From the NCBI GenBank assembly GCA_965178125.1, contig CBCXTV010000001.1, forward strand, positions 186,001 through 250,000: a DNA stretch of 64,000 bases, in the 5' to 3' direction. The notes under the pieces were generated by a model. That model searched no databases and had not been told where the DNA came from. It saw only the letters and a program-made list of their open reading frames with translations. The translations under genes were made by a program, and so were the position numbers. Source of the DNA: Bilabrum cf. latius (Eukaryota). This document shows, piece after piece, positions 1 through 34,985 of this stretch. Numbering within the stretch: position 1 is the first letter of the stretch; every line of letters begins with the position of its first letter.

Positions 1-99
1 GGGCGGATCCTGCGGGAAGTCGTGGAGACTGAGGGCAGAGACTCTCGGGTCGGTCAGGGTCTCATGTAACGTGCTGTTCACCGCAGAGGTATGTGCGGA

Positions 100-353
100 T
101 CTTGGTGGATCTCTCGAGGACATGGGTGGCATACCGTTGTGCATCCGTTCCCCGGGGGGGGCGGTCGCAGAAGAGTGCACACGAAAACAAGAGGAAAGGA
201 GACCAACCCCCCAAACCCACGTAGTGCGATCCTGGGGGGTACCCTATAAGGTACTAAGAATCCTTCTCCCGAAAATCGCACTACCTCGGGCCACAACGTC
301 TTGGTGGATTCCTCGAGGACATGGGTGGCATACCGTTGTGCATCCGTTCCCCG
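100..353 (+). repeat. 55-bp direct repeats (100-154, 299-353) flanking a degenerate copy of the candidate origin hairpin
   Basis: TCTTGGTGGAT..CTCGAGGACATGGGTGGCATACCGTTGTGCATCCGTTCCCCG occurs twice; the enclosed DNA matches 15950-16080, including GTAGTGCGA...TCGCACTAC. Confidence 0.85.
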
Positions 354-3119
354 TCGCTCCCTAACGTCTTCAGTGGCAGGTTCGGAAAAGACACCTCCGT
401 AGGCACGCGACAAGTCCCGGTGAAGCGGGCTCGCACCGCGCTGGGCGGGAGATCGTGAGCGCTTAGAGGACCGGAGCTTTCGGGCGGGTGCGTGTCTCGA
501 CAAACTCCCTCTTGACCACGGGCGGGGAACGTGTAGGGCGGAAGCTAAAGACACCGTAAGTAGCGGAGGGCTAACATTCCGTCCTTCGGTGAGAGCCAAA
601 AGTTCGAGTCTGCGAGAGACTATTATACGAAGTTCTCCCCTCCTCATACGTGCGCATAGCCTCCTCACGCGGTAGCGCGAGCGCGGGACCCGGACCTGTC
701 CCTGATGGGCGTGAATCTGAACCCGGCGTACTCTCCTAGTCTGTCACTTCCACGACCTTGTTGTCGCGGAACCACTTGCACGGAGAGGAACCTGTCGTTC
801 AAGCGGGTGCAGCCGGACGCGCAGGTGTAGTGCATCGCCTTGCATATGTGCACGGCCAAGTAGATGCCGGAACCGTAGAGGTATCACACTTCCCGCGGAG
901 CTTGGGTGGGTCTTTCGCTGCTGTCGTCTGCTCCAGAAGGTTTGCGCCAAAAACCGGAAAACTTCTAAGACAGAGGTGGGATGCCAGGAGCTCACGGTCC
1001 TGCCGGATTGGGGAGGTCCATGCCCACGCGAGCCGGGTACGCGTCCAAATCAACGCACAGAGCGGGAGCTGAGGGCGCCAAGGACGCTCACTGTCAGGCA
1101 CACACAACGCGCACAGAATTCGTCATTTCGCGTTCAAAGCCTGCCAACGACGTGGCGCTTGGCGAAATGTGGTGGGTGGCGAAGATGTGGTACTTCGCCG
1201 TGCCTTTCTCTATGACGGCCAAGCGTGCACTCGCCATCGCGCTCGGACGCCACAGGAAGAGATCCCAGCTCGCAGCTCCGCCGCCTCATCCAGGAGTAAG
1301 GCGAAGTCGAATCGTGAATAGCGCTTCGCACCTTCACAGAGCCGAGGATCACAGATAGGCCCCGCCTCACAGAACCCAGCGCCATAGGGCAGAGCGTGAA
1401 GTACCTGGCCGCTTGGCTTGGCCGGACCCCCGCCCGCCCTCCGCCGGCAGCTCCTCCCGTCCGTCCCTATGGAGGCAGATCCGCGTACCCATGCTGCGGC
1501 GGGATCCTGACACAATCCGCTCCTCTTAGTGTGTGGCCGTGGGGCATGAGTGGAGCAGCATCGGGCCCTCACCAGCCGTGGAACGGAAGCAGCTCTCCGT
1601 GCGGCAGCTGTGCGATGCACAGACCTCGTCCCAAAGATACGGATCCATTTTGCCGTCTTCCCGCGCATACTGCATCGCTCTGCAAAACTGCATTGCGCAG
1701 TGGATCCCCGAGCGTCGACTGCCAATAGCAGGCGGCCTCGCAAGGCCTTCATGGACGCAGGATTTGGGCTTCTTCATCGTAAATTTGGGGTCTGCTCAGC
1801 GCGCGAAAATTCCAACGCTTCAAAATGATCCGGACGTCGCGAGAAGGGAACTCGTTGCTTGCTCACCTGTGCGGAGGGGTTGGATGCCCGATGTGCTAAA
1901 GAGAGGATACTGTCCGTCGGCGTTCTCTCTTCACCTTGTGCGGAAGGGTTGGGTGCCTGATTTCAGACAGAGAAGGTCTCGTCCGTTGGGAGCGCTTAGG
2001 AATACTTCCGGATGGGGCGTCCAGACGCGGTCCAGGACCTCCAGCTCGTCGGGGTCAATGTCGCCCGCGCCGTCCGTGCCTTTGACGCCTCTGGATCGAT
2101 GATGCCCACGATCTTTGTCATCTCGGACGACACACGTCCCAGCTGCTCTTTGGTAGTGCATTACCTCATTGACCCCGAAGCGTTGAATATTTAATGAAGA
2201 CCCTTCGGAAGCTGGCGAAGTTTGTCAGCTTGTCGGAGCGCAGCCTGGGTCCTTGTCAACAAACATGGAGGGTTTCGGGGCGGATTTCCAGCGTTCCGCC
2301 TTGATATCGAGTGCACCTCGAGGTCGGGATCGAAGCGGGGCGGGCGGTTCGTCATCCTCTGTGATACGCTTAGGAGGCGCCGACTTGATGCCCACCTTGT
2401 CCCCCAATCACTCCAGACGTAACTGGGGAACTCTTCCCGTCGTGGGCCGGGTACGCCTCCGAATCCCACGCGAGCCGTTCCCCACGGCGCACCGATAAGC
2501 GCCGCTGCAAGCGTACCAAGAGGGGCGTACCAAGAGGTGCTTCCTTCGCTCGGCAGTGTGGCACTTCAAGCAGTAGAATGTGCCACTCCCAGCACGTAGG
2601 TGGAGTTTGCGAGCTGCCGGCCGACATGCTCGTGTGGTGACCTCCGGCGCACCGATAAGTGCCGCTGCAAGCGCACCAATACTACTTCGCTTGGGAGCGA
2701 GGCACTTTAAGCAATGCAGTGCGCCGGTTTTCGTGCACGCCCAGTCGCGCGGACGCCGCAGGTGGCTTGGCCGTAGGATAGAATTAGTGGCGGGTCGGTT
2801 TTGCATGTCTTCCCTCTCCTCTTGATATGGTACACAAAGGCAAGAGCCTGACGATGCAGACGGAACTCCTGGATTTCACCGCCACATTCCTAGTCAAGAC
2901 AGCCCTCGACTAAACAGACGCCGAGTTATCTTGAGCAGCATCCCACGACGCAGTGATGTGGACGGCAAGGGTGATGCCATGCTTTCCGGGCCTCCCATGT
3001 GACCGCTTTTTGCGTACCGAAACACTTTCCGGGGTCGACGCCCCGGCGGAACACGCCGGCGCGGCGGCAAGCGTCGATGTTGCGGGCGGCCCAGCCATGA
3101 GGTACATGATCAAGTACAC

Positions 3120-4177
3120 GGAAAGCACGCAGAGCGTCGTCAATCCGTTCGTGAGCCGCGAGTTCCAAAAGGTCTTCGAGACATCCGCCCGGAAAGCACG
3201 CAGAGCATCGTCAATCCGTTCGTGAGCCGCGAGTTCCAGAAGGTCTTCGAGCACATCCCCCCGGAAAGCACGCAGAGCATCGTCAATCCGTTCGTGAGCC
3301 GCGAATTCCAGAAGGTCTTCGAGCACATCCCCCCGGAAAGCACGCAGAGCATCGTCAATCCGTTCGTGAGCCGCGAATTCCAAAAGGTCTTCGAGCACAT
3401 CCCCCGGATGATGTCGAGCATGCGGACGCCCTGCTCCGGATGATGTCGGCCATGCGGACGCTCTTCCCAGACCTTGCGCGGCAGCGGGACGAAAATGGAG
3501 CTCTCCCTGCACCGCAAGCACGCCGGAAACCTGGTGCACTTCCACGTGTGCATGACGGACTCCGAGAGGTCGCATCGTTGTCGCGTGGCGGAGGATTTCA
3601 TTTGGGCCGGCAGCAGGCCGAATGTCGTGTACGGCTTTAAGGTACCGAACCGGAGCTCCCGGCAGCAGCGCAGGCGGAGACATCCGCCCGGAAAGCACGC
3701 AGAGCATCGTCAATCCGTTCGTGAGCCGCGAGTTCCAGAAGGTCTTCGAGCACATCCCCCCGGAAAGCACGCAGAGCATCGTCAATCCGTTCGTGAGCCG
3801 CGAATTCCAGAAGGTCTTCGAGCACATCCCCCCGGAAAGCACGCAGAGCATCGTCAATCCGTTCGTGAGCCGCGAATTCCAAAAGGTCTTCGAGCACATC
3901 CCCCGGATGATGTCGAGCATGCGGACGCCCGGCTCCGGATGATGTCGGCCATGCGGACGCTCTTCCCAGACCTTGCGCGGCAGCGGGACGAAAATGGAGC
4001 TCTCCCTGCACCGCAAGCACGCCGGAAACCTGGTGCACTTCCACGTGTGCATGACGGACTCCGAGAGGTCGCATCGTTGTCGCGTGGCGGAGGATTTCAT
4101 TTGGGCCGGCAGCAGGCCGAATGTCGTGTACGGCTTTAAGGTACCGAACCGGAGCTCCCGGCAGCAGCGCAGGCGGC
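3120..4177 (+). repeat. 72-bp tandem repeats (4+3 copies) nested in a 499-bp tandem duplication
   Basis: GGAAAGCACGCAGAGC at 3120, 3191, 3263, 3335, 3690, 3762, 3834; ~3180-3678 repeats at ~3679-4177; unit derived from ORF910 at ~13723-13795. Confidence 0.95.
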
Positions 4178-4852
4178 ATGCTTGGGGCGGCACGTGGATC
4201 TTCGACGACGCCATTACGCTCAGCGATTGCGGGTCGAGGGTGCAGATCGACGCGCCGCAGTCGAAGGTCTTGGCGATGGTAATGCCCCGGAAGTCGGGCC
4301 AGTGGATTCCTCATAGGCTGCGCTCGCGTACGATCTGGTATTTGGGTGGGGAGCAGTCGGCCGTGATCACCAACCTCAAGTGCCAGGCCTGCCCCGGAAG
4401 TCGGGCCAGGGCATTCTCCGAGTCTCTTTGCCGATGATGTCTGAGGAGAAACCGTCCGAGAGCATTGCTGTTTCCTTGGGAGACGGCCGCAATCTTCGTG
4501 GGCGTCAAGGCGCCGGTAATATGGGAAACGAGGGCGGCATGTTGGCGCGCGAGGTCGACGCCCCGGCGGAGGGGGGGGGCCGTACGTGCCGTGACAGGTC
4601 GCGCCGGAGCCGGCGGAGGAGGCGACATGGACTTGCAACGCGTGCCAGGGCCTAAGCCCCGGTCAGAGTACTTCAAGAAGTGGAAGGACTGGATCCAACC
4701 AGTTTGCCGGGTGTGTTACGACAAGTTCGACAGCGCGACGCCGTGGTGGGTGAGGTGCAAGAACTGCAAAAACGAGTTTCCGGCGTACCGATTTCCCCAG
4801 ATCCGCCGGAAGAGGGACGGGCCTCGATCTCGGAAAGGGCGGGAGTCCGTTC

Positions 4853-6175
4853 TTGCATTCGGAATGGGCGGGGAGTTGCTTTTCCTGGGAGCATGTGCGA
4901 GATTCCTTCTCCGCGGGTCCTCTTTCGGCTTCGGCAGTCAGCAGCGCACTCTGCGGGAACGGCATTCTCCGAGTCTCTTTGCCGATGATGTCTGAGGAGA
5001 AACCGTCTGAAAGCATTGCTGTTTCCTTGGGAGACGGCCGCAATCTTCGTGGGCGTCGAGGCGCCGGTGATATGGGAAACGAGGGCGGCATGTTGGCGCG
5101 CGAGGTCGACGCGCCGGCGGAGCACGCCGGCGCGGCGGCAAGCGTCGATGATTCGGGCGGCCCCCACATCGAGAGCGGCGGCGCGGAGGCGGCGTCCACG
5201 GGGATGCTCGGAGAGGAGAGCGGCAAGGCAGCGCCGAAGGAGGACGCCGAAGACGACGGCGGCAAGAAGACGGAGGAGGAGGATGCTCGCGGCGGTGGAC
5301 GTGCTGTGGTGCCCGGAGGTAATGACGACGTATGGACCGACGCAGCAGCTTGGAAGGCGGGTGGCGGCGTGGCAGCCGGGGCGGTCTCTGGCGCTGATAG
5401 CTGGGCTCTATGGGGGACCCCTGCGAAGTCGTCATGGGGGGAGACGTACGTGCCGCGGCAGGTCGCGTCGGAGCCGGCGGAGGAGGCGACATGGACTTGC
5501 AACGCGTGCCAGTGCTGCAAGCCCCGGTCGGCGTACTTCAAGAAGTGGAAGGACTGGATCCAACCAGTTTGCCGGGTGTGTTGCGACAAGTTCGACAACG
5601 CGACGCCGTGGTGGGTGTGGTGCAAGAACTGCAAAAACGAGTATCCGGCGTACCGATTTCCCCAGATCCGCCGGAAGAAGGAGAACTTGCGCTATTTCTT
5701 CCCTGAGGACTGGTGCGCGAAGTGCCTGGTTGCGCGTGGCTGGAGTCTCCATGATGTCCGTTCCTCTGCGGGTGAAGCGAAGCGTTGGGTGCCAAAAGCT
5801 GGCGCGAATACCGGTGACGGCGACAACGACGCTCGTGCTCCCGCACGCGACGAGCTTCCTGCAGGAGGCGCCGCCTCCTGCAGCAACGCCGTGCATCAGA
5901 GTTCTTCGCGTGACGAGGCCTTGGATGACATCAACCGGGCCATGGAGCTTCTCCGGAATGCGGAGAAATTCATCTCCGCGATGCCATCGTGCATGCAGTG
6001 TGCGGTGCAGGACCAGTTGATGCAGGGCATCGTCAAAGACCAGGCCCTCTTGGATATCTTCTCCGGCAAGATAACGGACTGGATCAAATACCATCCGGCC
6101 ACTCTTGGGGCGATCCAATCCTATCGAAACGCATGGCTGTGGGCCGACGGAATGGCTCATGGTTGTCGAGGATGA
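4853..6175 (+). CDS. Chimeric paralog of the Cys-rich zinc-finger protein ORF430, with a C-terminus from ORF354 and ORF910 (expression unknown)
   Basis: Nearly identical to 20983-22275 up to AMELL, then QCAVQDQLMQG (ORF354) and IVKDQALLDIFSGKITDW...RNAWLWA (ORF910) in frame. Confidence 0.5.
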   Translation: MHSEWAGSCFSWEHVRDSFSAGPLSASAVSSALCGNGILRVSLPMMSEEKPSESIAVSLGDGRNLRGRRGAGDMGNEGGMLAREVDAPAEHAGAAASVDDSGGPHIESGGAEAASTGMLGEESGKAAPKEDAEDDGGKKTEEEDARGGGRAVVPGGNDDVWTDAAAWKAGGGVAAGAVSGADSWALWGTPAKSSWGETYVPRQVASEPAEEATWTCNACQCCKPRSAYFKKWKDWIQPVCRVCCDKFDNATPWWVWCKNCKNEYPAYRFPQIRRKKENLRYFFPEDWCAKCLVARGWSLHDVRSSAGEAKRWVPKAGANTGDGDNDARAPARDELPAGGAASCSNAVHQSSSRDEALDDINRAMELLRNAEKFISAMPSCMQCAVQDQLMQGIVKDQALLDIFSGKITDWIKYHPATLGAIQSYRNAWLWADGMAHGCRG

Positions 6176-6658
6176 TATCGAACCTCGCGAAGCATGCGTG
6201 GATCGGCTACTCGTAGTTCTTCACGCCATCGCGAAACCCCAAGGTGACGCAGATGGCCATGTTAGCGGGGTCAGAAGCACCGAGAATGGTCAGCCTCCAG
6301 CGCGGAAACTCACCTCATGCACAACTGCGAGCGCCTCTTGGACGTGCGGACCTATCCGGCGCACTGGGTAGACAACACATTTGTGGTCCCCTTCCACGTG
6401 GGCATGGGCCTAAAGTGGTATCTCATCAGCCCGGAGGGGAGGAAGGCGCTCCTGAAGATGCGGATCCCGAACCGAAGCTTCGAACGCTGCGTCTGGCGCC
6501 GCATCTTCGACACGTTCCAAGGGCCGGTATGTAATGTCCGTCGTGATGTCCGTGTGCGCGGCCCTGAGTTGGGGGGTTGTCTCGTCTGGGAAAAAACAGA
6601 GCGCGTGCCCATCTCCTACGAAGACTTGTGCGGTGTTCACGAGCACGCCGGCGAAACC
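6028..6658 (+). pseudogene. Frameshifted, internally deleted fragment of the GT25-like domain of ORF910 (also at 33222-33852 and 60417-61047)
   Basis: PTEWLMVVEDDIEPRE, HNCERLLDVRTYPAH and VWEKTERVPISYEDL fall in different frames; matches 11888-12409 and 12601-12726. Confidence 0.85.
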
Positions 6659-6834
6659 TCGAGTTTTGGCATCAAGATCGTGTCGCGGCCAGGCTGTACG
6701 ACGGCGGCAAGAAGACGGAGAAGGAGGATGCTCACGGTATCGCCCTGATCATCTGCACGACTTCGTGGGGCTCCATGACGTAACGGCGAGCGAGAACATT
6801 GACTGGTGGCGTGGCTGGAGGATCTCGGGAACAC

Positions 6835-6995
6835 ACGGCGGGCGAGCCGTTTTTCAAAAGGAGCACGGGTCCTTCGGGACGCCATTTCACTTACGGCGGG
6901 CGAGCCGTTTTCCGAATGGTGCGGGGGTCCTACTGATGCACACGGCGATCGCTGGTTCACTCACGGCGGGCGAGCCGTTTTCCGAATGGTGCGGA
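6835..6995 (+). repeat. Three copies of ACGGCGGGCGAGCCGTTTT(CCGAATGGTGCGG), each a small hairpin
   Basis: Motif at ~6835, ~6893 and ~6963; ACGGC...GCCGT is self-complementary. Confidence 0.8.
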
Positions 6996-7514
6996 GTCCT
7001 CCAGATGACCACGGTGATGGGTGGCAGCATGTCATAGGCGCGCCGTCGGAAGCTTCCCCTTCGAGTGATGCCTAAAACTGAGAAACCTGGAGATCCTAGC
7101 ATCGTATGGAGGCAAGAGGTAACACCTTGGGGTCCGTTCTCCGCTTCAATTCCTGTCCCAAATCCGATTCCCATTTCGAGACCGAAAAAGGTGACCCGGA
7201 AAACGACGGTACTTATTTCTGAACCGTTTTCCGGACGCTTTCCGGGTCTCCCATGTGACCGCTTTTTGCGTACCGAAACACGTTCCGCGCGTGAGGAGCA
7301 GATGCGGATCTCCGCGGGGTCCTATTTGTGTCTTTTTTCGGGGACGAAATCGGGCGCACTTCTCGTGCCGATTTGTGGTCGTCTCTGAAACCGGCTGCGA
7401 GTCGGGAAAGGTGCCCGAGATGCTTGTGTCCTTGGCTTCGTATTTCTCCGCATATTCTTCAAACGCGGGCGGCAGTGGCTCCTGCGCGGGAGCTTCCCGA
7501 GTGGGTCCGTCGTG

Positions 7515-7711
7515 CAGTGCGCTGGGTAGGTCCGCAGGTCAAGGAGGCGCTCGCAGTTATAGACGTAGGTGGAGTTTGCGAGCTGCCGGCCGACATGCTC
7601 ATGTGGTGACCGGAGGTCACCACATGAGCATGTCGGCCGGCAGCTCGCAAACCCCACCTGCGTCTATAACTGCGAACGCCTCCTTGACCTGCGGACCTAC
7701 CCAGCGCACTG
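7515..7711. repeat. 97-bp near-perfect inverted repeat with a 3-nt loop
   Basis: Arms 7515-7611 and 7615-7711, loop GGA, 3 non-Watson-Crick positions; the right arm ends in sequence homologous to ORF910 (NCERLLDLRTYPAH). Confidence 0.95.
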
Positions 7712-7791
7712 AGCAGACAACGCATTTGTGGTCCCCCTCCACGTCGGCATGGGCTTGAAGTGGTACCTCAGGAGGATTTCACTTGCGCCGG

Positions 7792-8695
7792 CCCCCAGGA
7801 TTTCGCCAAAAATGGCCGATCCGCACAAGGAATTTAAGTTGCGGCGACACAGCTCGGACCCTGGCTTTTTTTTGGCTGTTTCGGGGCCCCAAGAGGGCTC
7901 CCGGCCCCAAAAAGGGCAAAACGCGAGGTTGTGGTGGAAAAAATGGGCCCCAAGGAGTCTCCAAACGACGCAAAACGCCACGTTGTGGTGGATTTTAGAG
8001 CCCCTAAATCGCCCAAAAAAGACGCAAAACGCCACGTGGTGGTGGATTTTAGAGCCCCTAAATCGCCAAAAAAGACGCAAAACGCCACGTTGTAGTGGAT
8101 TTTAGAGCCCCTAAATCGCCCAAAAAAGACGCAAAACGCCACGTTGTGGTGTTTTTTTTGAGCGTTTTCGGGGGGCTCGGAAGGGGACCCCCCCAGGATT
8201 TGGCCAAAAATGGCCGATCCACACAAGGACTTTAAGTTGCGGCGACACAGTTCGGGCCCCGGTTTGTTTTTGCGGTTTGGGGGCCCCGAGAGGGCTCCCG
8301 GCCCCAAAAAGGGCAAAACGCGAGGTTGTGGTGGAAAAATGGGCCCCAGGCAGCCCCAAACGACGCAAAACGCCACGTTGTGGTGGATTTTAGAGCCCTA
8401 AATCGCCCAAAAAAGACGCAAAACGCCACGTTGTCGTGGATTTTAGAGCCCTAAATCGCCCCAAAGAGACGCAAAACGCCACGTTGTAGTGGATTTTAGA
8501 GCCCCTAAACCGCCCTAAAAAGACGCCAAACGCCACGTTGTGGTGTTTTTTTTGAGCGTTTTGGGGGGCCCGGAAGGGGACCCCCCCAGGATTTGGCCCA
8601 AAATGGCCGATCCACACAAGGAATTTAAGTTGCGGCGACACAGTTCGGGCCCCGGGGTTTGTTTTGCTGTTTGGGGGCCCCAAGAGGGCTCCCGG
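7792..8695. repeat. Satellite: 53-54-bp monomers inside a ~395-bp higher-order repeat
   Basis: GACGCAAAACGCCACGTTGTGGTGGATTTTAGAGCCCCTAAATCGCCCAAAAAA at 7967, 8021, 8074, 8128 and again from ~8362; CCCCCAGGATTT..CCAAAAATGGCCGATCC at ~7792, ~8190, ~8583. Confidence 0.93.
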
Positions 8696-11513
8696 GAGGC
8701 CCTAGAGTGGCCCTTCTCCGCTTCAATTCCTGTCCCAAATCCGATTCCCATTTCGAGACCGAAAAAGGTGACCCGGAAAACGACGGTACTCTCCGTCACT
8801 CCATCTGGCGGCGAAAATTGCCTCAGTTTCCGGTCCCCGATTCCGGGCCCAGGGACCCCCGAAATTCCCGATTCCGCGCAGTGCCGAAAGCTCGACATAA
8901 ACCACAAACACGACACACAACACAACACGATAGCGCCTCCCCACGCGCGGGATTGGGTCCTTCCGCTCGCTGCATGTGAGCTGCAGTGTGTTCTTGCCGG
9001 GAATGTCACTGGAAGTCGCGCTGCAGTCTGCTCAGGGCGCCTTATGACCATGAAGGCGTCTCAGCACCCGCGACGGCAAGAGGGGGCACGCACGACGTTG
9101 CGAAGCACCCGCCCTGGGTGAAGAAACTGCGTATCCACAGGAGTCACGTTCAGGTGCGCGAGAATTGGAAAGGCGGGGTAACTGGTGCAGAGGAGCTTGT
9201 TCGCAGCGCGGCTTCCACCAGCGCCGCTGACGGTAAGATGCATCGGTCTCGGTACATGAGTCGGCACGGTGTTGCGTGATTGACTTCACGATGCGGGAGT
9301 GTGCAGCCTTCCGCAGCGGGAGAATTGTATCTCCCCACGACCGCCGAAAAAAAAAAGAAGGCTATGCTGGACTCGTTCCAGGGAAGGCTATGCGATGAGT
9401 ATCTCTAGGCGCTTTCCGGAAGACCCACCCACTACACGCTGGTCAGCCCTCCCAAGCGGGAGTGAACCGCGGATCCGCGGGCCCGTGAGCGCTGCTGCTA
9501 CGATCATTTCTGCCCGTTTGACTCTCGCCCACTCTTGCCGTGACCAAAGACGCGCAGATCCTTATGACGCATGACACCTCGTCGAGGTGTCGAGACTGCC
9601 TCACATTCCCGTTACAAAGACCCACAGCACTGCGACAACGAAATCGGTCACGAAGAGAGCAAGAGGCCGCGCACCTGAGCATCACAAAAACCCCGAGAGA
9701 CATAAACAACACCGTCCCGTGAAGTCCCTGCGACGAGGGGATGCTAAGCGGCTCCCACGGCGGCTCCTCTGCGGGAAAAGCTGCCGCAGACCTCGAGATG
9801 GGATGCACATGACTGCGAAGATTGCGGAACTCGTCCGAAGCCGGTCGCACGAGGGTCACAGCGAATGGAGGCATATCTATGAAATAGAGTCTGCGTGCAA
9901 AGCAGCATTCCAACGATCGTCCGCATTCTTCCGAGCAAATCCTTGGGAGCACACATCCTGCGGACGACATCTCTTTTCTATCCACCCCAGCGTACTCCCC
10001 GCACACACTTCTCGCGAATGATTGAGAATTCTGTGCGGCACATGTAATATCAGGCTACCATGATACGCGGAATGGCGTGCTATTGCTCGCACGTTCGTGC
10101 GCCCCCTTCCGAATGCGCTTACCACATCACTATGTTCGTCGGCAACCGTATACACCGTAGGGGTCTTCCCTCCGACACCAAGCGTACACGACTGGCCGTA
10201 ATAGCGCAGCGTAGATGTTTCGGACGTCGCCCAGGACAAGTGTCGACGCCCGGTTCGTCACGATCACTACGTGTGCACTTCACTCACCGCCCTCCAGCCG
10301 CTAGACTTCTTTTGGAGCGCGACATCCTACGACGCGCTATGACACGTAGCCGTAAACCGCAGACGGCCTCGCGTTCACTGCTTGCAGCGCAAGAGCGTGA
10401 ACAAGAACCGCCCGCGTGGCACACCTTCGCAGGCGCGGAAGACAAAAAGTTCCTTCTAAGCTTGTATTCGGGTCCGAAAGCCAAATTCCACTTCGGGGTC
10501 GAGAAGGGCGACCCGGGAAATCACCGTACGCTCTGTGAATCCATTTCCCGGGGAAAGTCCCCGAGTTCCCGCTACCCGGTCCCAGGCCCAGCGACCCAGG
10601 AAAGTTCCCGTCCCCCCGCATGCGGAAACCTCCCACGAAGCACGCCCACCTCACGCTTCACACGCAAAAGTCCAGGAGTCAAATCCATTCCGGACCCAGC
10701 AGTTCACCCCCGTGACGATTGGGAAAGGCTCTTGCACACACCTTCTCGTCCGAGCAGTCTATGGAGCACACACCTGTCTTCGTTGCCTTTTCCGGCCAAA
10801 AATGCAGGGAGTTCGAAGGGGAAGTAGCAAGCGCGGAAGACCGCTTTCGAAACGCAGGTGCTCAGGGAAAAACAACCAGAGCGTCCCTGATCCTCGGCAG
10901 AGCCGTCCAGGAGGGACGGGCACGGACGGGCATCGCAGATCTTGCAGCGCCACCATTCGCCGGGATGGGCGACCGGACGAGGGCGACCACAAGTACGTAG
11001 CGTGCGACGTCCGTCAGTCGCCATGTTGCGCTGATTCGCTTTCGCGGCACGACTTCCAGGGCCGGCCTTACTCACTCCTCGGAGTCCGCGTGTGGATTCT
11101 CCCCTGCGCATGATCTGCCGCTCTAGATGCTACACAAAGATCCCGCTCGGATGACCCCCTCTGTGCATTCTGCAAGATTTTACGCGCCTCCATTCAATGC
11201 GCGAAGCATGCACCGCAGCAGTCTGAGTCCGGTGACCACCTTCAATAGCGTGGGACAAATTCCGTCCGCGATGTGCATTCGGGCATGCTCCCCTTTCCGA
11301 GTCTCTGTGACCCGTAGTGCGTCCGCGGCCAACGACTCAGGACTCCACGATGGTACGCACGAGTTGCATTCCTTGCACGAAGCGTGCGGAGAGAAAGCGA
11401 TGCTCAGACATCGAGGCGCTTGGAGGGTCTGCACGCGACATGCTTCGAGAGGCCATGCAAACATGCGAAACCAGAACTGAGGTTCCTCATCGTTCCTGCT
11501 GTCGAGCGCTCAA

Positions 11514-14246
11514 TTGGGGCATCGGATCAGGACGAAGCTCGCGAAGAGAGGGCGCGGGTGTCCCCATCCAAAAATCCGCCGCCTTCAAGGCTCATGTTCC
11601 CGGATCCTGCATTCGCGAGTTTCGGGAGCAGAAGTGCAAGATCGCCGCTGGACACACAGCGCATGCCATTTCCCGTCTCTGGAGATGTCGGGCTTCCAGG
11701 CGCAATTCGGACACCATCGCCAGGACCTCGGGAAGATGACATGTCTGCTGATCTGCAGGGAAGAGTCCCGCTTCGAGGAGTGGCGACAAAAAAAAGGGGC
11801 GCGAGAACTCCAGGAGCACATGGGAGCGGTCCTTCGGCTCCCCAATCCAGTGTTTCCGCAGACCGACAGGGACCCAGATGGACGCGACATCGTCAAAGAC
11901 CAGGCCCTCTTGGATATCTTCTCCGGCAAGATAACGGACTGGAGCAAATACAATCCGGCCACTGTTGGGGCGATCCAATCCCATCGAAACGCATGGCTGT
12001 GGGCTGAGAACCACACGCCGACGGAATGGCTCATGGTTGTCGAAGATGATATCGAACCTCGCGAAGCATGCGTGGATCGGCTACTCGTAGTTCTTCACGC
12101 CATCGCGAAAAACCCCAAGGTGACGCAGATGGCCATGTTAGCGGGGTCAGAAGCACCGAGAATGGTCACCCTCCAGCACGAAAACTCCACCTCCATCCAC
12201 AATTGCGAGCGCCTCTTGGACGTGCGGACCTATCCGGCGCACTGGGTAGACAACACATTTGTGGTCCCCTACCACGTCGGCATGGGCCTAAAGTGGTATC
12301 TCATCAGCCCGGAGGGGAGGAAGGCGCTCCTGAAGATGCGGATCCCGAACCGAAGCTTCGAACGCTGCGTCTGGCGCCGCCTCTTCGACACGTTCCAAGG
12401 GCCGGTATGGAAGTGGGGAGATTGCCTCCGCATGACATCTGTGCTGGCAGCCAGCCCGGTCCTCGCATCGACTCCCGAGAGCATGGACACGGAGTGGGGG
12501 GGCTCGGGACGACGAAGTGCGGATGCAGGGCACAGTATGAAACCGTACATAATGGTCGACCCGAGTGACGACTGGACTCTTGGCGAGCGATTAAACACAT
12601 TGTCCGTCGTGATGTCCGTGTGCGCGGCCCTGAGTTGGGGGGTTGTCCTCGTCTGGGAAAAAACAGAGCGCGTGCCCATCTCCTACGAAGACTTGTGCGG
12701 TGTTCACGAGCACGCCGGCGAAACCAACACGTTCGTCCACCTCCTCCAGGACAAACGCGGCGGGTCGTATTCGTACTTCCTGAGGTACGGAGACATCCGC
12801 ATCCACGTGGTGCAGCCGATGATGTGCATCCCCACCCTCGACAGAATGCTCGACATGGTAGCCCTGAAGAGGCCCAAGATGAACACCCTGCCTCCCTTGA
12901 AATGGCAGACCGCTCGATGGATCCAAGTCAAGCAGAAGTGGATCGATAAACTCCACACGGAGATGCCGGGGGCCGAGCTGCCCTCATGGCTGGAGTGGCC
13001 ACCCTCAACCCACGCGCTTGTCCTCTGCGACGACAGGGACTTGGCGGCGCACTGCCTCGAGGGGAGATGCCAAAAGGAGCAGCAGGAGTGGATGAACGAC
13101 GGGAAGGACAACAGCATCCAGCACTACATCCTTGAGGCAAAGCAAGCGCTGCAGAACGAGTTGGAAGACATCCTAAAGGGGGACAGCAGCTCACGCCTCG
13201 TCGTGATCCGCATGACAACCAAACTGCTGGGACAGGTCTGGGTGGACATGATGAAGCACCTCACGAAGCAGTTCGGGAAGCGCATCATAACGCCAACGTT
13301 CCTCCTCCCGAAAATGATCCCCAAAAGGAGGCACGACGAAAAGAACCCGAGTGATGATTGGATTACTTGGGGAGCATCCTTGGCGAAAACCGTGGGCCTC
13401 CTCACGCTCATACCTCCGATGCAAGTGCACTATCCCATCATGAGCTGGACCGTGGCCTGGAACCACTTCATGTTTAAGGGCAGGACTGCCACGGACACCG
13501 TGATCCCAGACGTCATCCGAACTCTGTACGCTCCGCACAAGAGCAACAGGAAGCAGCTCCTCAAGAACGGCCCGCTGTGCCAGACGAGGCGCGCCGTGCT
13601 GGACTCGCCCGCACTGCGGGAGATTGCGAACAACTACTCAAGGGCCAAGGACAAGACCTATAACCTCTTGAGTTATTCCAAATGGTTTGCCGAAGAAGCC
13701 ATGTGGCACATGATCAAGTACGCGGAAAGCACGCAGTGCATCGTCGACCCGTTCGTGAGCCGCCAGTGCCAAAAGGTCTTCGAGCACATCCCCTCGGACG
13801 ACATCGGCCATGCGGACGCCCGGCTCCGGTACAACCTTCAGGATGCCGACGACCGAGGTTACCGCTTCAACGCGGGGCATCTCTACACCGCGGTGCAGGG
13901 CATCAAAACGGTGAACATCGCATACAACAAGTGGCTCACCGAGCAGGCACAGAGTCATTCCGAATGGAGCTGGGGCAAAACGTTCATCAAGCTTGTGATC
14001 AACCAGTGGCGGCAGCAGCAGGGCAGTGAGCCGTATGACGTGGACGAGGAGGACTACGTGAGCCTTCCGCGGACCTTCCACGGGAATTCGTTGAAGCTCG
14101 CGAGGAGCGTAAGCCTCCAGGACACGAGATCCTGCTCCAGATCGTCCTCATCCTATTCCAGGTCGCCCTCCACCAACAGGACTGAGGCACAGCCTTCGAA
14201 GAGAGCGCGCCTGACCCCGGCACCCGGCGTAAAGCACGAGCCCTGA
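11514..14246 (+). CDS. ORF910: large protein with an N-terminal glycosyltransferase family 25-like domain (first ATG at 11685)
   Basis: Longest ORF with globular composition; GAIQSHRNAW...WLMVVEDD...GLKWYLISPEGRKALLK fits the GT25 pattern G-x2/3-SH-x3-W / hhhEDD / G-x3-Y-h-h-S-x2-G-x3-LL; C-terminal ~550 aa unrecognised; NLS-like PSKRARL. Confidence 0.8.
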   Translation: MGHRIRTKLAKRGRGCPHPKIRRLQGSCSRILHSRVSGAEVQDRRWTHSACHFPSLEMSGFQAQFGHHRQDLGKMTCLLICREESRFEEWRQKKGARELQEHMGAVLRLPNPVFPQTDRDPDGRDIVKDQALLDIFSGKITDWSKYNPATVGAIQSHRNAWLWAENHTPTEWLMVVEDDIEPREACVDRLLVVLHAIAKNPKVTQMAMLAGSEAPRMVTLQHENSTSIHNCERLLDVRTYPAHWVDNTFVVPYHVGMGLKWYLISPEGRKALLKMRIPNRSFERCVWRRLFDTFQGPVWKWGDCLRMTSVLAASPVLASTPESMDTEWGGSGRRSADAGHSMKPYIMVDPSDDWTLGERLNTLSVVMSVCAALSWGVVLVWEKTERVPISYEDLCGVHEHAGETNTFVHLLQDKRGGSYSYFLRYGDIRIHVVQPMMCIPTLDRMLDMVALKRPKMNTLPPLKWQTARWIQVKQKWIDKLHTEMPGAELPSWLEWPPSTHALVLCDDRDLAAHCLEGRCQKEQQEWMNDGKDNSIQHYILEAKQALQNELEDILKGDSSSRLVVIRMTTKLLGQVWVDMMKHLTKQFGKRIITPTFLLPKMIPKRRHDEKNPSDDWITWGASLAKTVGLLTLIPPMQVHYPIMSWTVAWNHFMFKGRTATDTVIPDVIRTLYAPHKSNRKQLLKNGPLCQTRRAVLDSPALREIANNYSRAKDKTYNLLSYSKWFAEEAMWHMIKYAESTQCIVDPFVSRQCQKVFEHIPSDDIGHADARLRYNLQDADDRGYRFNAGHLYTAVQGIKTVNIAYNKWLTEQAQSHSEWSWGKTFIKLVINQWRQQQGSEPYDVDEEDYVSLPRTFHGNSLKLARSVSLQDTRSCSRSSSSYSRSPSTNRTEAQPSKRARLTPAPGVKHEP

Positions 14247-15120
14247 CGACGAAATGCCGCAGAACAGCGCGTTGCGGGGAGACAAAGCTCCGCGGGCAAC
14301 AGCAGAAGGCCGCCGAGCGCCGGAGTTGGAGGGTCACATAGTTCCATCGGTCCCATTCTCTCCGGAAGTCGCATAGCACGTAGAGATCCGCATGCTCTCG
14401 GTGCATGAACGCTGGCAGCACGCAGTGCCAAAGTCGCAAAGCGCTTCAGAGTCACAAGTCCAGAAGTTCTTCTGCCAATGTGTGTCCTCTTCCCGCTCAT
14501 GTGTGCATCCTCGGAGGAAGTCTGGAGATGACAGGACCCAGCACGCAGCACATCAGAAGTCCTTTTTTAAAGCGGCATCGTCAGACAAAAATCTGGAACG
14601 CCCTTCCGCAAAAAAGAGTGCTGCCCACAGAAAAAAGGGAAACACCTGAGGCCCCAGAAGCCAAAGGGAGGACCGCGAAGGACGCAGTTTCGAGGTCACA
14701 CTTTCCGGGACCAGTTTTGAGCCCAAAAAGGGGTACACAAGAGGAAAACACGATGCGGGAGGCTTGAAATTGTCACCGAAAACGGGCCCAAAATTGGGAC
14801 CCCTTTTTCGCAAATTTCGCAGCATCCAGACGACCCAGAAAGGCTTTCCCAGGCGCCGCCTCGAAGCTCACCTTCTCGCATGCAACCATGACGCAGCCCC
14901 ACCTCCTCATGCAGACGCGTCTGAGAGACCCCGCAGTGGAACTTCTCCCATTCTGCGCAGGAAGCACCTCAGTCTACAAGGACCCGCGCACTTCTTACCG
15001 CACCACCTCCATGTGAAAGCACTTCTCGCGGAGTTTTTTTCGGGCCCAGGAATACAGCAACTGCCAGAAGCTTCGCACAGAAAAGCAGCCCACTCAGGAA
15101 GCAAACTCACTGCACACCCC

Positions 15121-15591
15121 ATGGCGAGCGACGCAGAACCGGAGGACGCAATGCGGCTCGACTCCCCTAGAGATGCGGATGCAGCGGCGCCACCCGAAGC
15201 GACGGAGGCAGGATCACAGAAACCAGATCATGCGCAGCAGTTCTTCGAGGAGCCCTGCCCGAAAGACGGACACATGGAAGCGCCAGAGAAGACCGCCAAG
15301 ACGGACGAACCTGGCGACACACCCATGTTCGTCGACAAGTGGACGGCAGCGATCACACGCCTTACCGAGGAGCGCAAGGCTCTCAAGCTCGAGCAGCGGG
15401 CTAAAACGAAGGCCATCCGCAAAACCATCCGGCAGAAAAGGCGCACCATGAAGAACGCCAAAAAACTCACAGACGACGAGCTCGCCCAAATCGTGCTAGA
15501 CAGGAAGATCTTGCAGTTGGTGCAAAAAGAAGAGATCGCAGCACGCAGCTCCGCCAACTCCTCAACGAGCCAGGCGAAGTCGACCTTGTGA
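15121..15591 (+). CDS. Small protein with an acidic N-terminus and a basic coiled coil (156 aa from ATG; ORF open from 14764)
   Basis: KWTAAITRLTEERKALKLEQRAKTKAIRKTIRQKRRTMKNAKKLTDDELAQIVL is a helical, K/R-rich segment. Confidence 0.65.
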   Translation: MASDAEPEDAMRLDSPRDADAAAPPEATEAGSQKPDHAQQFFEEPCPKDGHMEAPEKTAKTDEPGDTPMFVDKWTAAITRLTEERKALKLEQRAKTKAIRKTIRQKRRTMKNAKKLTDDELAQIVLDRKILQLVQKEEIAARSSANSSTSQAKSTL

Positions 15592-16012
15592 GAAGCGCTT
15601 CCCGTGTTCAGAGAACCGAGGATTACAGATAGACCCCGCGTCACAGAAGCCATCGCAAGAGGGCAGAGCGTCAAGTACAGCGCAGTCTTGACGGACACAG
15701 ATAGCCCGAGCAGCACAAAGCAGCGGATGCGGCTGCCCAGCGGAGTCGCGCACTCGGACAGCATACACGGGACGTGCTGGCAGAAATCACTCAGTCCGCG
15801 AGCACCGTCGTCAAGAGCACGGGAGGGGCAGACTCGACATGCACAACTTTGAAAAACGGGAGGGCACGAAAGGAAGACAAATTTGGCATTAATCCTTGAT
15901 TACCCCCGCCCCCCCGTAGAATCAGAGCGAGGAGATATGCTCGGAAGGTCCGGGGGGCAGTCGCAGAAAAGTGCACGCGAAAATAAGAGGAAAGGAGACC
16001 CCCCAAACCCAC

Positions 16013-16257
16013 GTAGTGCGACCCTCGGGGGTACCCTCTAAGGTACTAAGAATCCTTCCCCCGAAAATCGCACTACATCGGTCCCTGGCGTCGGGGAAAG
16101 CGGAAAAAAGGGGAGCACTACCGTGAAAAAATCCTGCATTTTACAGGAAAATCGGAGCACTACGTGTCAAAAACTGGGGGTTTTTGAGGTTTTTTTTCCA
16201 GAAAAACGGCATTTTTTTATGTAAAAACCGCGCGAAACGAGCACTACCGAGCACTAC
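16013..16257. promoter_or_regulatory. Candidate rolling-circle origin / Rep-binding region: stem-loop plus iteron-like GCACTAC repeats
   Basis: GTAGTGCGA (16013-16021) pairs with TCGCACTAC (16068-16076); inner TCGGGGG/CCCCCGA and GTACC/GGTAC; GAGCACTAC at 16113, 16155, 16239, 16249; ~500 bp upstream of Rep. Confidence 0.6.
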
Positions 16258-34905: not shown

Positions 34906-34985
34906 AGCAGACAACGCATTTGTGGTCCCCCTCCACGTCGGCATGGGCTTGAAGTGGTACCTCAGGAGGATTTCACTTGCGCCGG

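What the first reader, a model, noticed from the sequence alone, without database searches (positions are those of the whole stretch)
100..7770. Self-derived scrambled 'catalogue' of the element's genes
Seen: more than 15 pieces of ~18-1150 bp copied from Rep, ORF910, ORF275, ORF430, ORF354, the transposase (CGGCAGTGGCTCCTGCGC at ~7470, source ~24959), the origin and intergenic DNA. They are out of order, almost all in sense orientation, and range from near-identical to clearly diverged. Inference: either a defective-interfering-type genome fused to the helper, or a small-RNA/decoy template that samples most genes of the element (piRNA-cluster or CRISPR-like memory logic). It is kept in every array unit.
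Basis: partly seen in the sequence, partly recalled or inferred. Interest (0 to 1): 0.85.

Follow-up and report, generated by a model that had tools for sequence, protein, structure and literature searches.

The report
Patchwork of an element's own genes
A 27-kb repeated DNA element carrying a virus-like replication gene holds a 4.8-kb stretch stitched together from about 25 same-direction pieces of its own genes, most likely scars of copying errors during its replication rather than a purpose-built archive.

Summary
The window is 2.35 head-to-tail copies of a 27,194/5-bp unit (99.92-99.94% alike). In each unit, 2981-7770 is 90% covered (4317 of 4790 nt) by pieces of the unit's other parts: 36 BLAST matches, against 0 in 30 of 30 shuffles. 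About 25 independent pieces are sense and 1 is antisense. They measure 18-1169 bp and are 82-100% identical to their sources. Of 18 junctions, 9 have 1-7 nt of microhomology, 4 are blunt and 5 carry filler. Positions 100-2980 are mostly unassigned.

The element encodes an HUH/SF3-helicase Rep from a large family with no Pfam match, a pogo-like DDE transposase, and conserved orphan genes.

Copy-versus-source differences look neutral. Identity shows no trend along the region, and gene coverage is very uneven (ORF430 94%, transposase 1%, ORF283 0%).

Metagenome proteins show the same chimeric ORF in another assembly (99% identical across two junctions) and a different ORF430/Rep patchwork in a more distant relative.

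Best reading (0.55): repeated same-strand template switching in a Rep-driven multicopy replicon, with the products piling up in a dispensable segment. One 395-codon chimeric ORF430 paralogue stays intact. A small-RNA or decoy role could not be tested.

The parts
1..27194 (+). One array unit. It repeats at 27195-54389 and, truncated, at 54390-64000.
   Evidence: Self-offset 27,194/27,195. Units are 99.92-99.94% identical.
101..154 (+). Left copy of a 54-nt direct repeat that flanks the inserted hairpin piece. The right copy is at 299-353.
   Evidence: Alignment shows one continuous conserved block with 2 mismatches.
156..289 (+). Copy (about 90-93% identical) of the origin-like hairpin region 15952-16081. 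The hairpin arms are 216-237 and 268-289.
   Evidence: Folded as DNA: -16.3 kcal/mol, z -3.2, 0 of 200 shuffles as stable.
290..2980 (.). Mostly unassigned DNA with no convincing ORF. It holds an ORF275-derived piece (1256-1404, 82%), a Rep-derived piece (1815-1855) and a 49-54 nt copy of the palindrome centre (2594-2647).
   Evidence: Flat GC1/2/3 in its ORFs. No Pfam match.
2981..7770 (+). Core patchwork. About 22 abutting sense pieces come from ORF430 and its upstream DNA, ORF910, Rep, ORF354, the transposase (18 nt) and intergenic 8714-8790.
   Evidence: 4317 of 4790 nt covered. 0 matches in 30 of 30 shuffles. Junctions.
3119..3405 (+). Four copies of a 72-bp tandem repeat derived from ORF910 13723-13798. 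A second block lies at 3680-3904.
3178..4176 (+). Recent 499-bp tandem duplication inside the patchwork (99.8%). It duplicates six pieces.
4823..5991 (+). Largest piece, a 1169-bp copy of ORF430 21106-22274 (98.0%; 23 mismatches, no gaps, no stop in the source frame).
4988..6175 (+). Intact chimeric ORF (395 codons from its ATG; 440 from the TTG at 4853). It joins ORF430 residues 97-430, a 13-residue ORF354 piece and an ORF910 piece, and is open in all three units.
   Evidence: 4853..6175, 32047..33369, 59242..60564. P0198 from an 11,803-bp metagenome contig matches 392 of 395 residues across both junctions.
6028..6658 (+). Two ORF910 pieces (11888-12409 and 12601-12725), joined with 191 nt of the source left out.
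6787..7136 (.). Unassigned 350 nt with about three local ~60-nt repeats.
   Evidence: read directly from the sequence.
7214..7471 (+). Copy of ORF430's upstream region and first 17 codons (20774-21034, 96-97%).
7470..7487 (+). Exact 18-mer from the transposase gene (24959-24976). It overlaps its two neighbouring pieces by 2 and 3 nt.
7515..7711 (.). Palindrome with 97-nt arms (97% complementary, 3-nt loop). It is made from an old ORF910 piece (12174-12303, 83%) and contains the only antisense piece.
   Evidence: The longest exact run against the source is 16 nt.
7792..8695 (.). Tandem repeats bounding the patchwork on the right (394-bp unit x 2.3, with 53-54-bp sub-repeats).
16007..16082 (+). 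Source hairpin in the intergenic DNA upstream of Rep. It lies exactly where AT skew flips from +0.40 to -0.28. Putative origin (inferred).
   Evidence: -19.4 kcal/mol, z -3.4, 0 of 200 shuffles as stable..
16766..19051 (+). Rep (761 aa). The C-terminal 382 aa combine an HUH endonuclease and an SF3 helicase.
   Evidence: Invariant H77/H79, Y127/K132, G251-K252-T253 and D292-E293 in 16 relatives. 1360 relatives. Model pLDDT 88. Foldseek top hits are AAV Rep68, B19V NS1 and papillomavirus E1. Language-model hits are Gemini_AL1-type Reps.
20983..22275 (+). ORF430, the most heavily sampled source (94% of it is represented). It has a Cys-rich C-terminal part and evolves fast.
   Evidence: Orthologue P0194 is 95% identical and has a 12-aa insertion.
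11514..14246 (+). ORF910, a conserved orphan gene and source of several pieces. A glycosyltransferase function is only a lead.
   Evidence: 7 homologues at 27-98% identity. Leads only.
24437..26074 (+). DDE_1 (pogo-type) transposase gene with no flanking terminal inverted repeats.
   Evidence: Pfam PF03184, E 2.2e-11..
26029..27093 (+). ORF354, a source of four pieces.

Best explanation
The patchwork is a fixed record of many separate copying accidents in a multicopy, Rep-driven replicon.

In this model, the growing strand repeatedly left its template during replication of the element and re-primed, with little or no homology, at another place on a template of the same polarity. That template could be the same circle or concatemer, or a sister copy. 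Each event copied 18-1169 nt before the strand jumped again.

The products survived only in the one long stretch of the unit that carries no essential gene, so they piled up there over a long time. They were then reshaped by local slippage (the 72-bp repeats), a 499-bp tandem duplication and one strand-switch that made the palindrome.

The pieces then drift neutrally. The exception may be one full-length ORF430 paralogue, which has stayed open and could be expressed as a chimeric protein.

Shown here: the anatomy, the junction types, the orientation bias, the spread of ages, the near-neutral differences, the HUH/SF3 Rep, and the recurrence in other assemblies.

Inferred: rolling-circle or other strand-displacement replication, template switching as the joining mechanism, and dispensability of the segment.
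For: (1) The signal is far above chance: 36 matches against 0 in 30 of 30 shuffles. Dispersed copies occur nowhere else in the unit.

(2) 18 junctions were examined: 9 have 1-7 nt of microhomology, 4 are blunt and 5 carry 1-20 nt of filler. Many pieces are very short (18-60 nt) and directly abutting, as in serial template switching.

(3) About 25 independent pieces are sense and 1 is antisense (binomial p 8e-7). Random capture of broken DNA would not give this. Copying from templates of one polarity would.

(4) The hairpin piece at 156-289 is flanked by a 54-nt direct repeat, meaning the flank was copied again after the detour.

(5) The element encodes an HUH + SF3 Rep and lies in a head-to-tail array.

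(6) Identity ranges from 81.9 to 100% with no trend along the region, which points to many events over time.

(7) Differences split 55 synonymous to 113 non-synonymous and are even over codon positions. The substitution spectrum is symmetric, so there is no RIP-like or editing-like bias.

(8) The same chimeric junctions occur in P0198 on an 11.8-kb metagenome contig (392 of 395 residues). A different ORF430 + Rep-N-terminus + ORF430 patchwork underlies P0195, listed on a 17,177-bp contig. The truncated ORF430 copy P0197 is listed on a contig of the same length.
Against: No replication intermediate, nick site or subgenomic molecule was observed.

The orientation bias could also come from selection against antisense inserts, if the whole unit is transcribed in one direction.

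Over residues 42-398, the ORF430 copy in the patchwork has 1 private amino-acid change against 5 in the 'real' gene. The chimeric ORF is open in all three units and in another assembly. At least that piece may therefore be under constraint rather than junk.

GC and AT skew flip at about 16.0 kb. That pattern would also fit bidirectional rather than rolling-circle replication.

The one distant relative with long flanks (L004) shows no such patchwork.
Confidence: 0.55

Rival explanations
1. Two-component co-integrate. The unit would be a helper module (16.08 kb to 27.2 kb to 0.25 kb, about 11.4 kb: Rep, ORF283, ORF430, transposase, ORF354) joined to a second module (0.29-16.0 kb, about 15.8 kb: unassigned DNA, patchwork, repeats, ORF910, ORF275). 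Each would begin at a copy of the same origin-like 'common region'. The patchwork-bearing module would be a satellite-like or defective partner that Rep can release between the two hairpins.
For: There are two hairpin regions in direct orientation, about 90% alike over 134 nt. The source hairpin sits exactly at a sharp AT-skew and GC-skew flip. The two modules differ in composition: A>T on one side, T>A on the other.
Against: No contig or joint shows either module as its own circle. The one loose end that looked like such a joint (27483) is explained by a source contig mislaid on the copy. The hairpin copy looks like one more inserted piece, with flanking duplication. ORF910 is a conserved gene, not defective DNA. 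The sizes of the metagenome contigs (about 12 kb and 17 kb) are what assembly breaks at the 1169-bp repeat would give (my arithmetic from the coordinates).
Confidence: 0.15
2. Regulatory RNA locus, the first reader's piRNA-cluster or decoy idea. The patchwork would be transcribed, antisense or through the palindrome, into small RNAs. Alternatively it would act as a sense decoy. Either way it would tune expression or copy number of the element's own genes, or of incoming relatives.
For: One locus gathers pieces of 6 of the 7 large ORFs in one orientation. A 97-nt-arm palindrome could give a long hairpin RNA. The locus persists in other assemblies, and a more distant relative has its own patchwork.
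Against: Coverage is very uneven: transposase 1%, ORF283 0%. Many pieces are too diverged to guide cleavage: the palindrome arm has at most 16 consecutive matches to ORF910. The differences look neutral. There is no order by age. No expression data exist.
Confidence: 0.1
3. Silent-cassette archive. The partial ORF430, ORF910 and ORF354 copies would serve as donors for segmental gene conversion that diversifies the expressed genes, ORF430 above all.
For: ORF430 is the fastest-changing gene seen (95% identity against 98% for ORF910 in what is listed as the same 25.9-kb contig). It is indel-polymorphic. Several overlapping variant copies of it sit in the patchwork. All 4 ORF430 differences between array units 1 and 2 carry the patchwork allele in unit 2. 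At 5 residues the patchwork copy matches another strain's expressed gene rather than its own.
Against: Plain new mutations in unit 1's ORF430, with the copy keeping the ancestral state, would produce all of these patterns. The numbers are small. There is no conversion tract with both ends defined. Most pieces are too short or too diverged to be donors.
Confidence: 0.08
4. RNA-mediated origin. The pieces would be reverse-transcribed from the element's sense transcripts, with template switching, and then inserted.
For: All large ORFs are on the + strand, so mRNA-derived pieces would all be sense.
Against: No reverse transcriptase is found in the unit. The pieces include upstream and intergenic DNA and the hairpin region (532 source nt lie outside the 7 ORFs). 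No poly(A) remnants are seen at junctions.
Confidence: 0.05
5. Assembly artefact. A mixed population of rearranged molecules would have been wrongly threaded into one concatemer.
For: The element is very deeply covered in one run, which gives tens of thousands of variant contigs. 81 joints are listed in total, 15 of them shown.
Against: The same structure appears three times in the window, with single-base differences between units. P0198, from a different assembly, crosses two of the junctions at 99% identity. A 25,927-bp contig carries ORF910 and ORF430 orthologues. Ten runs hold 62-84% of the 31-mers sampled from 1-10000, more than the 52% of that stretch that lies outside the patchwork.
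Confidence: 0.03

Closest known systems
Defective (subgenomic, rearranged) DNAs of Rep-encoding rolling-circle replicons such as geminiviruses and nanoviruses (recalled, not checked in a paper here)
   Same: These are also made from the replicon's own sequence by illegitimate recombination. The junctions have little or no homology, an origin-type hairpin is retained, and they arise again and again.
   Different: Here the rearranged DNA is part of the full-length 27-kb unit, not a small separate molecule. It is made of about 25 pieces rather than one or two deletions. It has layers of very different age. Interference with the full-length element has not been shown.
'Jumbled' plastid minicircles of the dinoflagellate Heterocapsa (passage read in PMC1679814, which cites Zhang, Cavalier-Smith and Green 2001; that paper was not read)
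   Same: These are multicopy circular molecules carrying truncated pieces of several of the genome's own genes next to a conserved core.
   Different: They are organellar, 2-3 kb and have no Rep gene of their own. They are separate circles, not a segment inside the gene-bearing molecule.
Complex rearrangements by fork stalling / microhomology-mediated break-induced replication (PMC2621351; only its abstract, in the listing, was seen)
   Same: These also show chains of short templated insertions, 0-7 nt of microhomology or filler at joints, and duplications flanking the inserts.
   Different: As I recall, such events usually mix direct and inverted pieces. Here the ratio is about 25 to 1 in one orientation, and the events accumulated over time at one locus of a small replicon.
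piRNA clusters such as Drosophila flamenco (recalled)
   Same: One locus collects fragments of many mobile-element genes in a common orientation.
   Different: Here the pieces come from the carrier itself, are sense relative to their genes, cover the genes unevenly and look neutral. No small RNAs are known.
Silent cassette archives for gene conversion (Borrelia vls, Neisseria pilS, trypanosome VSG pseudogenes; recalled)
   Same: These hold several partial, variant, same-orientation copies of a fast-evolving gene near or on the same replicon.
   Different: Here the cassettes are of mixed genes, mostly very short, joined without spacers, and not shown to donate sequence.

Membership tests
HUH-endonuclease + SF3-helicase Rep (CRESS-DNA-virus / parvovirus NS1 type) | HUH metal-binding motif | tested here: met
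   LVHFH. H77 and H79 are invariant in 16 of 16 aligned relatives.
HUH-endonuclease + SF3-helicase Rep (CRESS-DNA-virus / parvovirus NS1 type) | Catalytic tyrosine motif (YxxK) | tested here: met
   HYYCQAPK. Y127 and K132 are invariant in 16 of 16.
HUH-endonuclease + SF3-helicase Rep (CRESS-DNA-virus / parvovirus NS1 type) | Walker A, Walker B and motif C of an SF3 helicase | tested here: met
   G251-K252-T253, D292-E293 and N339 are invariant. The top Foldseek hits are AAV2 Rep68/Rep40, B19V NS1, papillomavirus E1 and PCV2 Rep ATPase (E 3e-6 to 2e-3; model pLDDT 88).
HUH-endonuclease + SF3-helicase Rep (CRESS-DNA-virus / parvovirus NS1 type) | Match to a curated Rep family profile (Pfam Viral_Rep, Gemini_AL1, Parvo_NS1, RNA_helicase) | tested here: not met
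   There are 0 Pfam families for the window's Rep and for 16 of 16 relatives scanned. There is no PDB sequence match. Only language-model similarity to Gemini_AL1 clusters (0.96-0.98) was found. I therefore file it as Rep-like in architecture, not as a member of a named virus family.
HUH-endonuclease + SF3-helicase Rep (CRESS-DNA-virus / parvovirus NS1 type) | Origin stem-loop with a conserved nonanucleotide nicked by Rep | tested here: inconclusive
   A stable hairpin lies upstream of rep, at the skew flip. No canonical nonanucleotide was recognised, and no nick site is known.
Defective interfering genome | Made of rearranged or deleted parental sequence | tested here: met
Defective interfering genome | Exists as its own subgenomic molecule that depends on a helper | not testable with these tools
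   Only contigs could be laid. The apparent joints and loose ends were either ambiguous or mislaid source contigs.
Defective interfering genome | Retains the replication origin | tested here: inconclusive
   A 90% copy of the hairpin region lies at 156-289. Whether it is an origin is unknown.
CRISPR-like ordered memory | Pieces of uniform size separated by repeats | tested here: not met
   Pieces measure 18-1169 nt and abut directly, with 0-7 nt of overlap or 1-20 nt of filler.
CRISPR-like ordered memory | Polarised addition (an age gradient along the array) | tested here: not met
   Spearman rho of position against identity is 0.24, p 0.24, over 25 pieces.
piRNA-cluster-like small-RNA source | Produces small RNAs antisense to the sampled genes | not testable with these tools
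   No usable RNA data.
Replicative template-switch rearrangement (FoSTeS/MMBIR type) | Microhomology or short filler at joints, and short templated inserts | tested here: met
   Of 18 junctions, 9 have 1-7 nt of microhomology, 4 are blunt and 5 carry filler. The mean overlap of the 13 non-filler joints is 2.4 nt.
Replicative template-switch rearrangement (FoSTeS/MMBIR type) | Mixture of direct and inverted pieces | tested here: not met
   About 25 sense pieces to 1 antisense. This departure is what points to single-polarity templates.
pogo/Tc1-type DDE transposon | DDE_1 transposase domain | tested here: met
   PF03184, E 2.2e-11, 44.1 bits against a cut-off of 22.
pogo/Tc1-type DDE transposon | Terminal inverted repeats flanking the transposase gene | tested here: not met
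   No convincing pair was found around 24437-26074.

The most novel reading that the evidence does not exclude
The patchwork would be a working self-sampling locus of a previously undescribed class of large Rep-plus-transposase replicons. The element would keep one dedicated sink where pieces of its own, and its relatives', genes are written in a fixed orientation. That sink would be read out as RNA or as a recombination donor, to control copy number, to exclude related competitors, or to diversify the fast-evolving ORF430. It would also spin off new chimeric genes such as the conserved 395-codon ORF at 4988-6175.
Probability: 0.1. Interest if true: 0.85.

Novelty: new variant of a known kind. 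Interest (0 to 1): 0.6.

Why it matters
If the reading is right, this is an unusually clean natural record of serial same-strand template switching. About 25 dated events sit in one 4.8-kb sink of a replicon, and they can be used to study how Rep-driven elements rearrange, create chimeric genes and generate defective forms.

The carrier itself also seems undescribed. It is a 27-kb unit with a Rep from a large family that has no Pfam match (1360 relatives at E <= 0.001), linked to a pogo-type transposase. The same gene pair recurs in a distant metagenome relative (L004). My literature searches listed no paper on such an element.

If instead the locus is read out as RNA or used as a recombination donor, it would be a new kind of self-sampling device in a mobile element.

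Tried and rejected
Expression: no RNA holder is listed among the 23 runs, so expression could not be addressed.

Read laying:
- The shared 'loose ends' at 30830, 33927, 33967, 30654, 27483 and 31329 first looked like structural variants of the patchwork. All six match the source genes (Rep, hairpin flank) that lay outside the laid stretch, so they are mislaid source contigs.
- The other 9 of the 15 loose-end strings checked match nothing in the unit. They remain unexplained differences in runs X1, X8 and X11.
- The listed joints (15 of 81 shown) mostly have anchors of 21-30 nt between repeated pieces. I do not use them as evidence for subgenomic forms.
- Depth per bin cannot prove the patchwork is present in X5 or X8, because source contigs also lie on it.

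Databases with no match:
- No DNA match in phages or plasmids.
- No tRNA and no Rfam family in the unit.
- The Rep pattern scan found nothing in IMG/VR or in 185,579 prokaryote species genomes. ORF910 found nothing in IMG/VR.
- The word-index protein search with full-length Rep found nothing, although full HMMER did.
- Pfam gave nothing for 20 of the 22 ORFs tried. The BTAD hit for the minus-strand ORF 2910-4214 is below its cut-off.

ORF910: the structure model was too poor to search (pLDDT 47). The glycosyltransferase idea rests only on language-model scores of 0.90-0.91, 1 of 8 homologues matching GT25 at E 0.005, and a PDB hit at E 0.77.

Other negative results:
- ORF430 and ORF354 share no detectable similarity.
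- tBLASTx and relaxed BLASTN of 290-2980 against the rest of the unit found nothing convincing beyond the known pieces and a copy of the palindrome centre.
- The old ORF910-derived pieces are not closer to the 63%-identical relative P0188 than to the window's own ORF910, so import from that lineage is not indicated.
- There is no RIP-like or editing-like substitution bias.
- L004, the only relative with long flanks, has 5.6-kb terminal inverted repeats but no dispersed self-copies.
- Exact look-up of 8 patchwork ORF translations found none in the protein collection.

Full report
WHAT THE WINDOW IS

The 64-kb window is 2.35 head-to-tail copies of one unit. The best self-offset is 27,195 (79% identity at that offset) and 27,194 before a single indel. 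Units align end to end at 99.92-99.94%. Units 1 and 2 differ by 20 mismatches and one indel. GC content is about 60%. No tRNA and no Rfam family is present in a unit. Neither the phage nor the plasmid collection has similar DNA, and no genome is held for the window.

THE GENES

All large ORFs with a coding-type GC3 > GC2 pattern lie on the + strand:
- ORF910 (11514-14246)
- ORF275 (14764-15591)
- ORF761 (16766-19051)
- ORF283 (19297-20148)
- ORF430 (20983-22275)
- ORF545 (24437-26074)
- ORF354 (26029-27093)

ORF545 is a DDE_1 (pogo-type) transposase (Pfam E 2.2e-11). It has no flanking inverted repeats.

The C-terminal 382 residues of ORF761 are a Rep.
- A full HMMER scan found 1360 relatives at E <= 0.001, 199 of them at E <= 1e-30.
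- In an alignment of 16 of them, the HUH histidines, the YxxK tyrosine and lysine, Walker A GKT, Walker B DE and motif C N are invariant.
- The AlphaFold model (pLDDT 88) finds AAV2 Rep68/Rep40, B19V NS1, papillomavirus E1 and PCV2 Rep ATPase as its best PDB matches.
- A language-model search points to Gemini_AL1-type Reps.
- None of the 16 relatives scanned, nor the window's protein, matches any Pfam family. The Rep is therefore Rep-like in architecture but belongs to no curated family.
- It was not found in 185,579 prokaryote species genomes or in IMG/VR.

ORF283 is conserved next to Rep in metagenome contig L001 (Rep 74%, ORF283 62% amino-acid identity). In the distant contig L004, a Rep (29%) again sits beside a DDE transposase (31%).

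ORF910 has seven homologues at 27-98% identity.

THE OBSERVATION

BLASTN of 1-7800 against the rest of the unit gives 36 matches, against 0 in 30 of 30 dinucleotide shuffles.
- Positions 2981-7770 are 90% covered (4317 of 4790 nt).
- Positions 1-2980 are 11% covered (324 of 2980 nt).
- Elsewhere the unit contains only local tandem repeats.

After collapsing the internal duplications there are about 25 sense pieces and one antisense piece (p 8e-7). Pieces measure 18-1169 nt (median 101) and are 81.9-100% identical to their sources.

Coverage of the sources is very uneven: ORF430 94%, ORF354 31%, ORF910 29%, Rep 12%, ORF275 8%, transposase 1%, ORF283 0%. Another 532 source nt lie outside ORFs.

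ANATOMY

Eighteen junctions were examined. Nine have 1-7 nt that fit both sides, four are blunt and five carry 1-20 nt of filler.

Later local events sit on top of the chain:
- 72-bp tandem repeats of an ORF910 piece.
- A 499-bp tandem duplication at 99.8%.
- A palindrome with 97-nt arms (97% complementary), built from an old ORF910 piece that is only 83% like its source.

The piece at 156-289 copies a hairpin region that lies upstream of Rep (16007-16082). That hairpin is more stable than all 200 shuffles, and it sits exactly where AT skew flips from +0.40 to -0.28 inside non-coding DNA. It is a plausible origin. The copy is flanked by a 54-nt direct repeat, 101-154 and 299-353. This is the pattern expected if the copying strand made a detour and then re-copied the flank.

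HOW THE PIECES EVOLVE

Differences between copies and sources number 55 synonymous and 113 non-synonymous, are spread evenly over codon positions, and are symmetric in direction. This is near neutral, with no RIP-like or editing-like signature. Identity shows no trend along the region (rho 0.24, p 0.24).

One piece stands out. The 1169-bp ORF430 copy has no gap or stop. It forms, with an ORF354 piece and an ORF910 piece, an ORF that is open in all three units.

In a three-way comparison with the orthologue P0194:
- The copy shares 5 residues with P0194 that the window's own ORF430 has changed.
- It has 9 private changes, 8 of them in the last 32 residues.

All four ORF430 differences between units 1 and 2 carry the patchwork allele in unit 2. 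New mutations in the expressed gene explain this most simply. Gene conversion is not excluded.

EVIDENCE FROM ELSEWHERE

The first 10 kb was used to search sequencing runs.
- Fourteen runs hold it or part of it, and ten of those hold at least half of its 31-mers. The runs come from ten studies and carry ten different coded organism labels.
- The 10 runs holding 62-84% of the sampled words exceed the 52% of that stretch that lies outside the patchwork.
- Laying contigs of four runs showed cover in all 30 bins for three runs and in 29 of 30 for the fourth.
- Source-gene contigs also lie on the patchwork, and six apparent structural differences turned out to be exactly that.

Better evidence comes from proteins called on metagenome contigs.
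- P0198 (395 aa, on an 11,803-bp contig) matches the chimeric ORF at 392 of 395 residues, across both the ORF430-to-ORF354 and the ORF354-to-ORF910 junctions.
- P0195 (244 aa, listed on a 17,177-bp contig) translates a different chain: ORF430 (21487-21657), then the Rep N-terminal region (17277-17672, in another frame), then ORF430 again. The window does not have this chain.
- P0197, listed on a contig of the same length, is a truncated ORF430 copy about 81% identical, with a longer insertion allele.
- ORF910 and ORF430 orthologues (98% and 95%) are both listed on a 25,927-bp contig.

The patchwork is therefore not an artefact of this assembly, and relatives carry other versions. L004, the only distant relative with long flanks, has 5.6-kb terminal inverted repeats but no dispersed self-copies.

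INTERPRETATION

Four features together are what serial template switching during replication produces:
- very short abutting pieces,
- little or no junction homology,
- filler at some junctions,
- a flanking duplication.

The near-absolute sense orientation is the unusual feature. Random capture of broken DNA would give both orientations. As I recall, fork-based template switching on duplex DNA usually gives both as well. Copying from templates of a single polarity would keep the orientation. That is the situation in strand-displacement or rolling-circle synthesis driven by an HUH Rep, with jumps within a concatemer or between sister copies. The one exception here is a snap-back palindrome.

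The events differ widely in age and sit in the only long stretch of the unit without a supported gene, so tolerance of insertions there explains the location. I put this reading at 0.55.

Selection against antisense inserts in a one-direction transcription unit could produce the same bias. It is compatible with the main reading.

RIVALS

- A two-module co-integrate bounded by the two hairpin regions (0.15). The direct hairpin pair and the compositional break at 16.0 kb support it. No module-sized molecule was seen, and the hairpin copy looks like just another insert.
- A small-RNA or decoy locus (0.10). This could not be tested here. Uneven coverage, divergence and neutrality argue against it.
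- A gene-conversion archive for ORF430 (0.08).
- An RNA-mediated origin (0.05). No reverse transcriptase is present, and intergenic pieces are included.
- Misassembly (0.03).

COMPARISON WITH WHAT IS KNOWN

The closest analogues are:
- defective DNAs of Rep-encoding replicons (recalled);
- the 'jumbled' minicircles of Heterocapsa, which carry truncated versions of several plastid genes (passage read in PMC1679814);
- replicative complex rearrangements of the MMBIR type (PMC2621351, abstract seen in the listing).

The difference here is that the rearranged DNA sits inside the full-length unit, is built from about 25 pieces of very different ages, and obeys a strict orientation rule.

The searches (CRESS/Rep/pogo/protist; HUH/SF3/DDE/episome; 27 kb/Rep/concatemer) listed no paper that describes such an element. 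I read only those listings. Supplements were closed.

LIMITS

- The host is unknown. The eukaryote-type transposase family and the arginine-rich N-terminal stretches are hints only.
- Whether the array is chromosomal or a read-through of circles is unknown.
- No replication, expression or small-RNA evidence exists.
- The DNA of the informative metagenome contigs could not be fetched.

Noticed in passing
window 16766-19051; proteins P0001-P0150: The Rep belongs to a large family (1360 representatives at E <= 0.001) that has clear HUH and SF3 motifs. None of the 16 members scanned matches a Pfam family. Many members carry long N-terminal extensions with an RRRL(R/K)K-type basic stretch.
   Followed up: partly
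L004 1-17426 (Rep 8654-10762, transposase 6823-7950): A distant relative again pairs this Rep type (29%) with a DDE transposase (31%). In that contig the gene pair is flanked by 5,634-bp terminal inverted repeats at 99.95%. The repeats could be real or a fold-back assembly artefact.
   Followed up: partly
window 15600-16600: AT skew flips from +0.40 to -0.28, and GC skew changes from negative to positive, within non-coding DNA exactly at the 16007-16082 hairpin. All large ORFs stay on the + strand on both sides. The 8-16 kb part is A>T and the 16-26 kb part is T>A.
   Followed up: partly
window 11514-14246: ORF910 is a conserved orphan with an 'EDD' stretch. The glycosyltransferase (GT25/GT11, giant-virus-like) hints are weak: language-model scores of 0.90-0.91, 1 of 8 homologues matching Pfam GT25 at E 0.005, and mimivirus R655 at E 0.77. 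The structure model was too poor to test this.
   Followed up: partly
window 20983-22275; P0194-P0197: ORF430 is indel-polymorphic after 'GGVA': there is no insert here, and inserts of 12, 13 or about 22 residues in relatives. It diverges faster than ORF910. Gene callers start the related proteins at the internal Met 96/97, so the first ~95 codons may not be coding.
   Followed up: partly
window 7792-8695: A 394-bp tandem repeat (2.3 copies) containing seven 53-54-bp sub-repeats lies directly to the right of the patchwork. It could hold iterons or a promoter or partition region.
   Followed up: no
window 22476-23457: A ~500-bp tandem duplication (87% identical) lies between ORF430 and the transposase gene. 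A 47-bp repeat lies at 20340-20448.
   Followed up: no
window 20001-40000 as laid: The element is held by runs with ten different coded organism labels from ten studies. One run shows extreme depth and about 35,000 laid contigs. Nine of the 15 loose-end strings checked match nothing in the unit, for example at 28192/28332 in X8 and several places in X11. Some carriers therefore differ in sequence or context.
   Followed up: partly
window 2594-2647: A 49-54-nt copy (94-98%) of the centre of the 7515-7711 palindrome lies in the otherwise unassigned left region.
   Followed up: no
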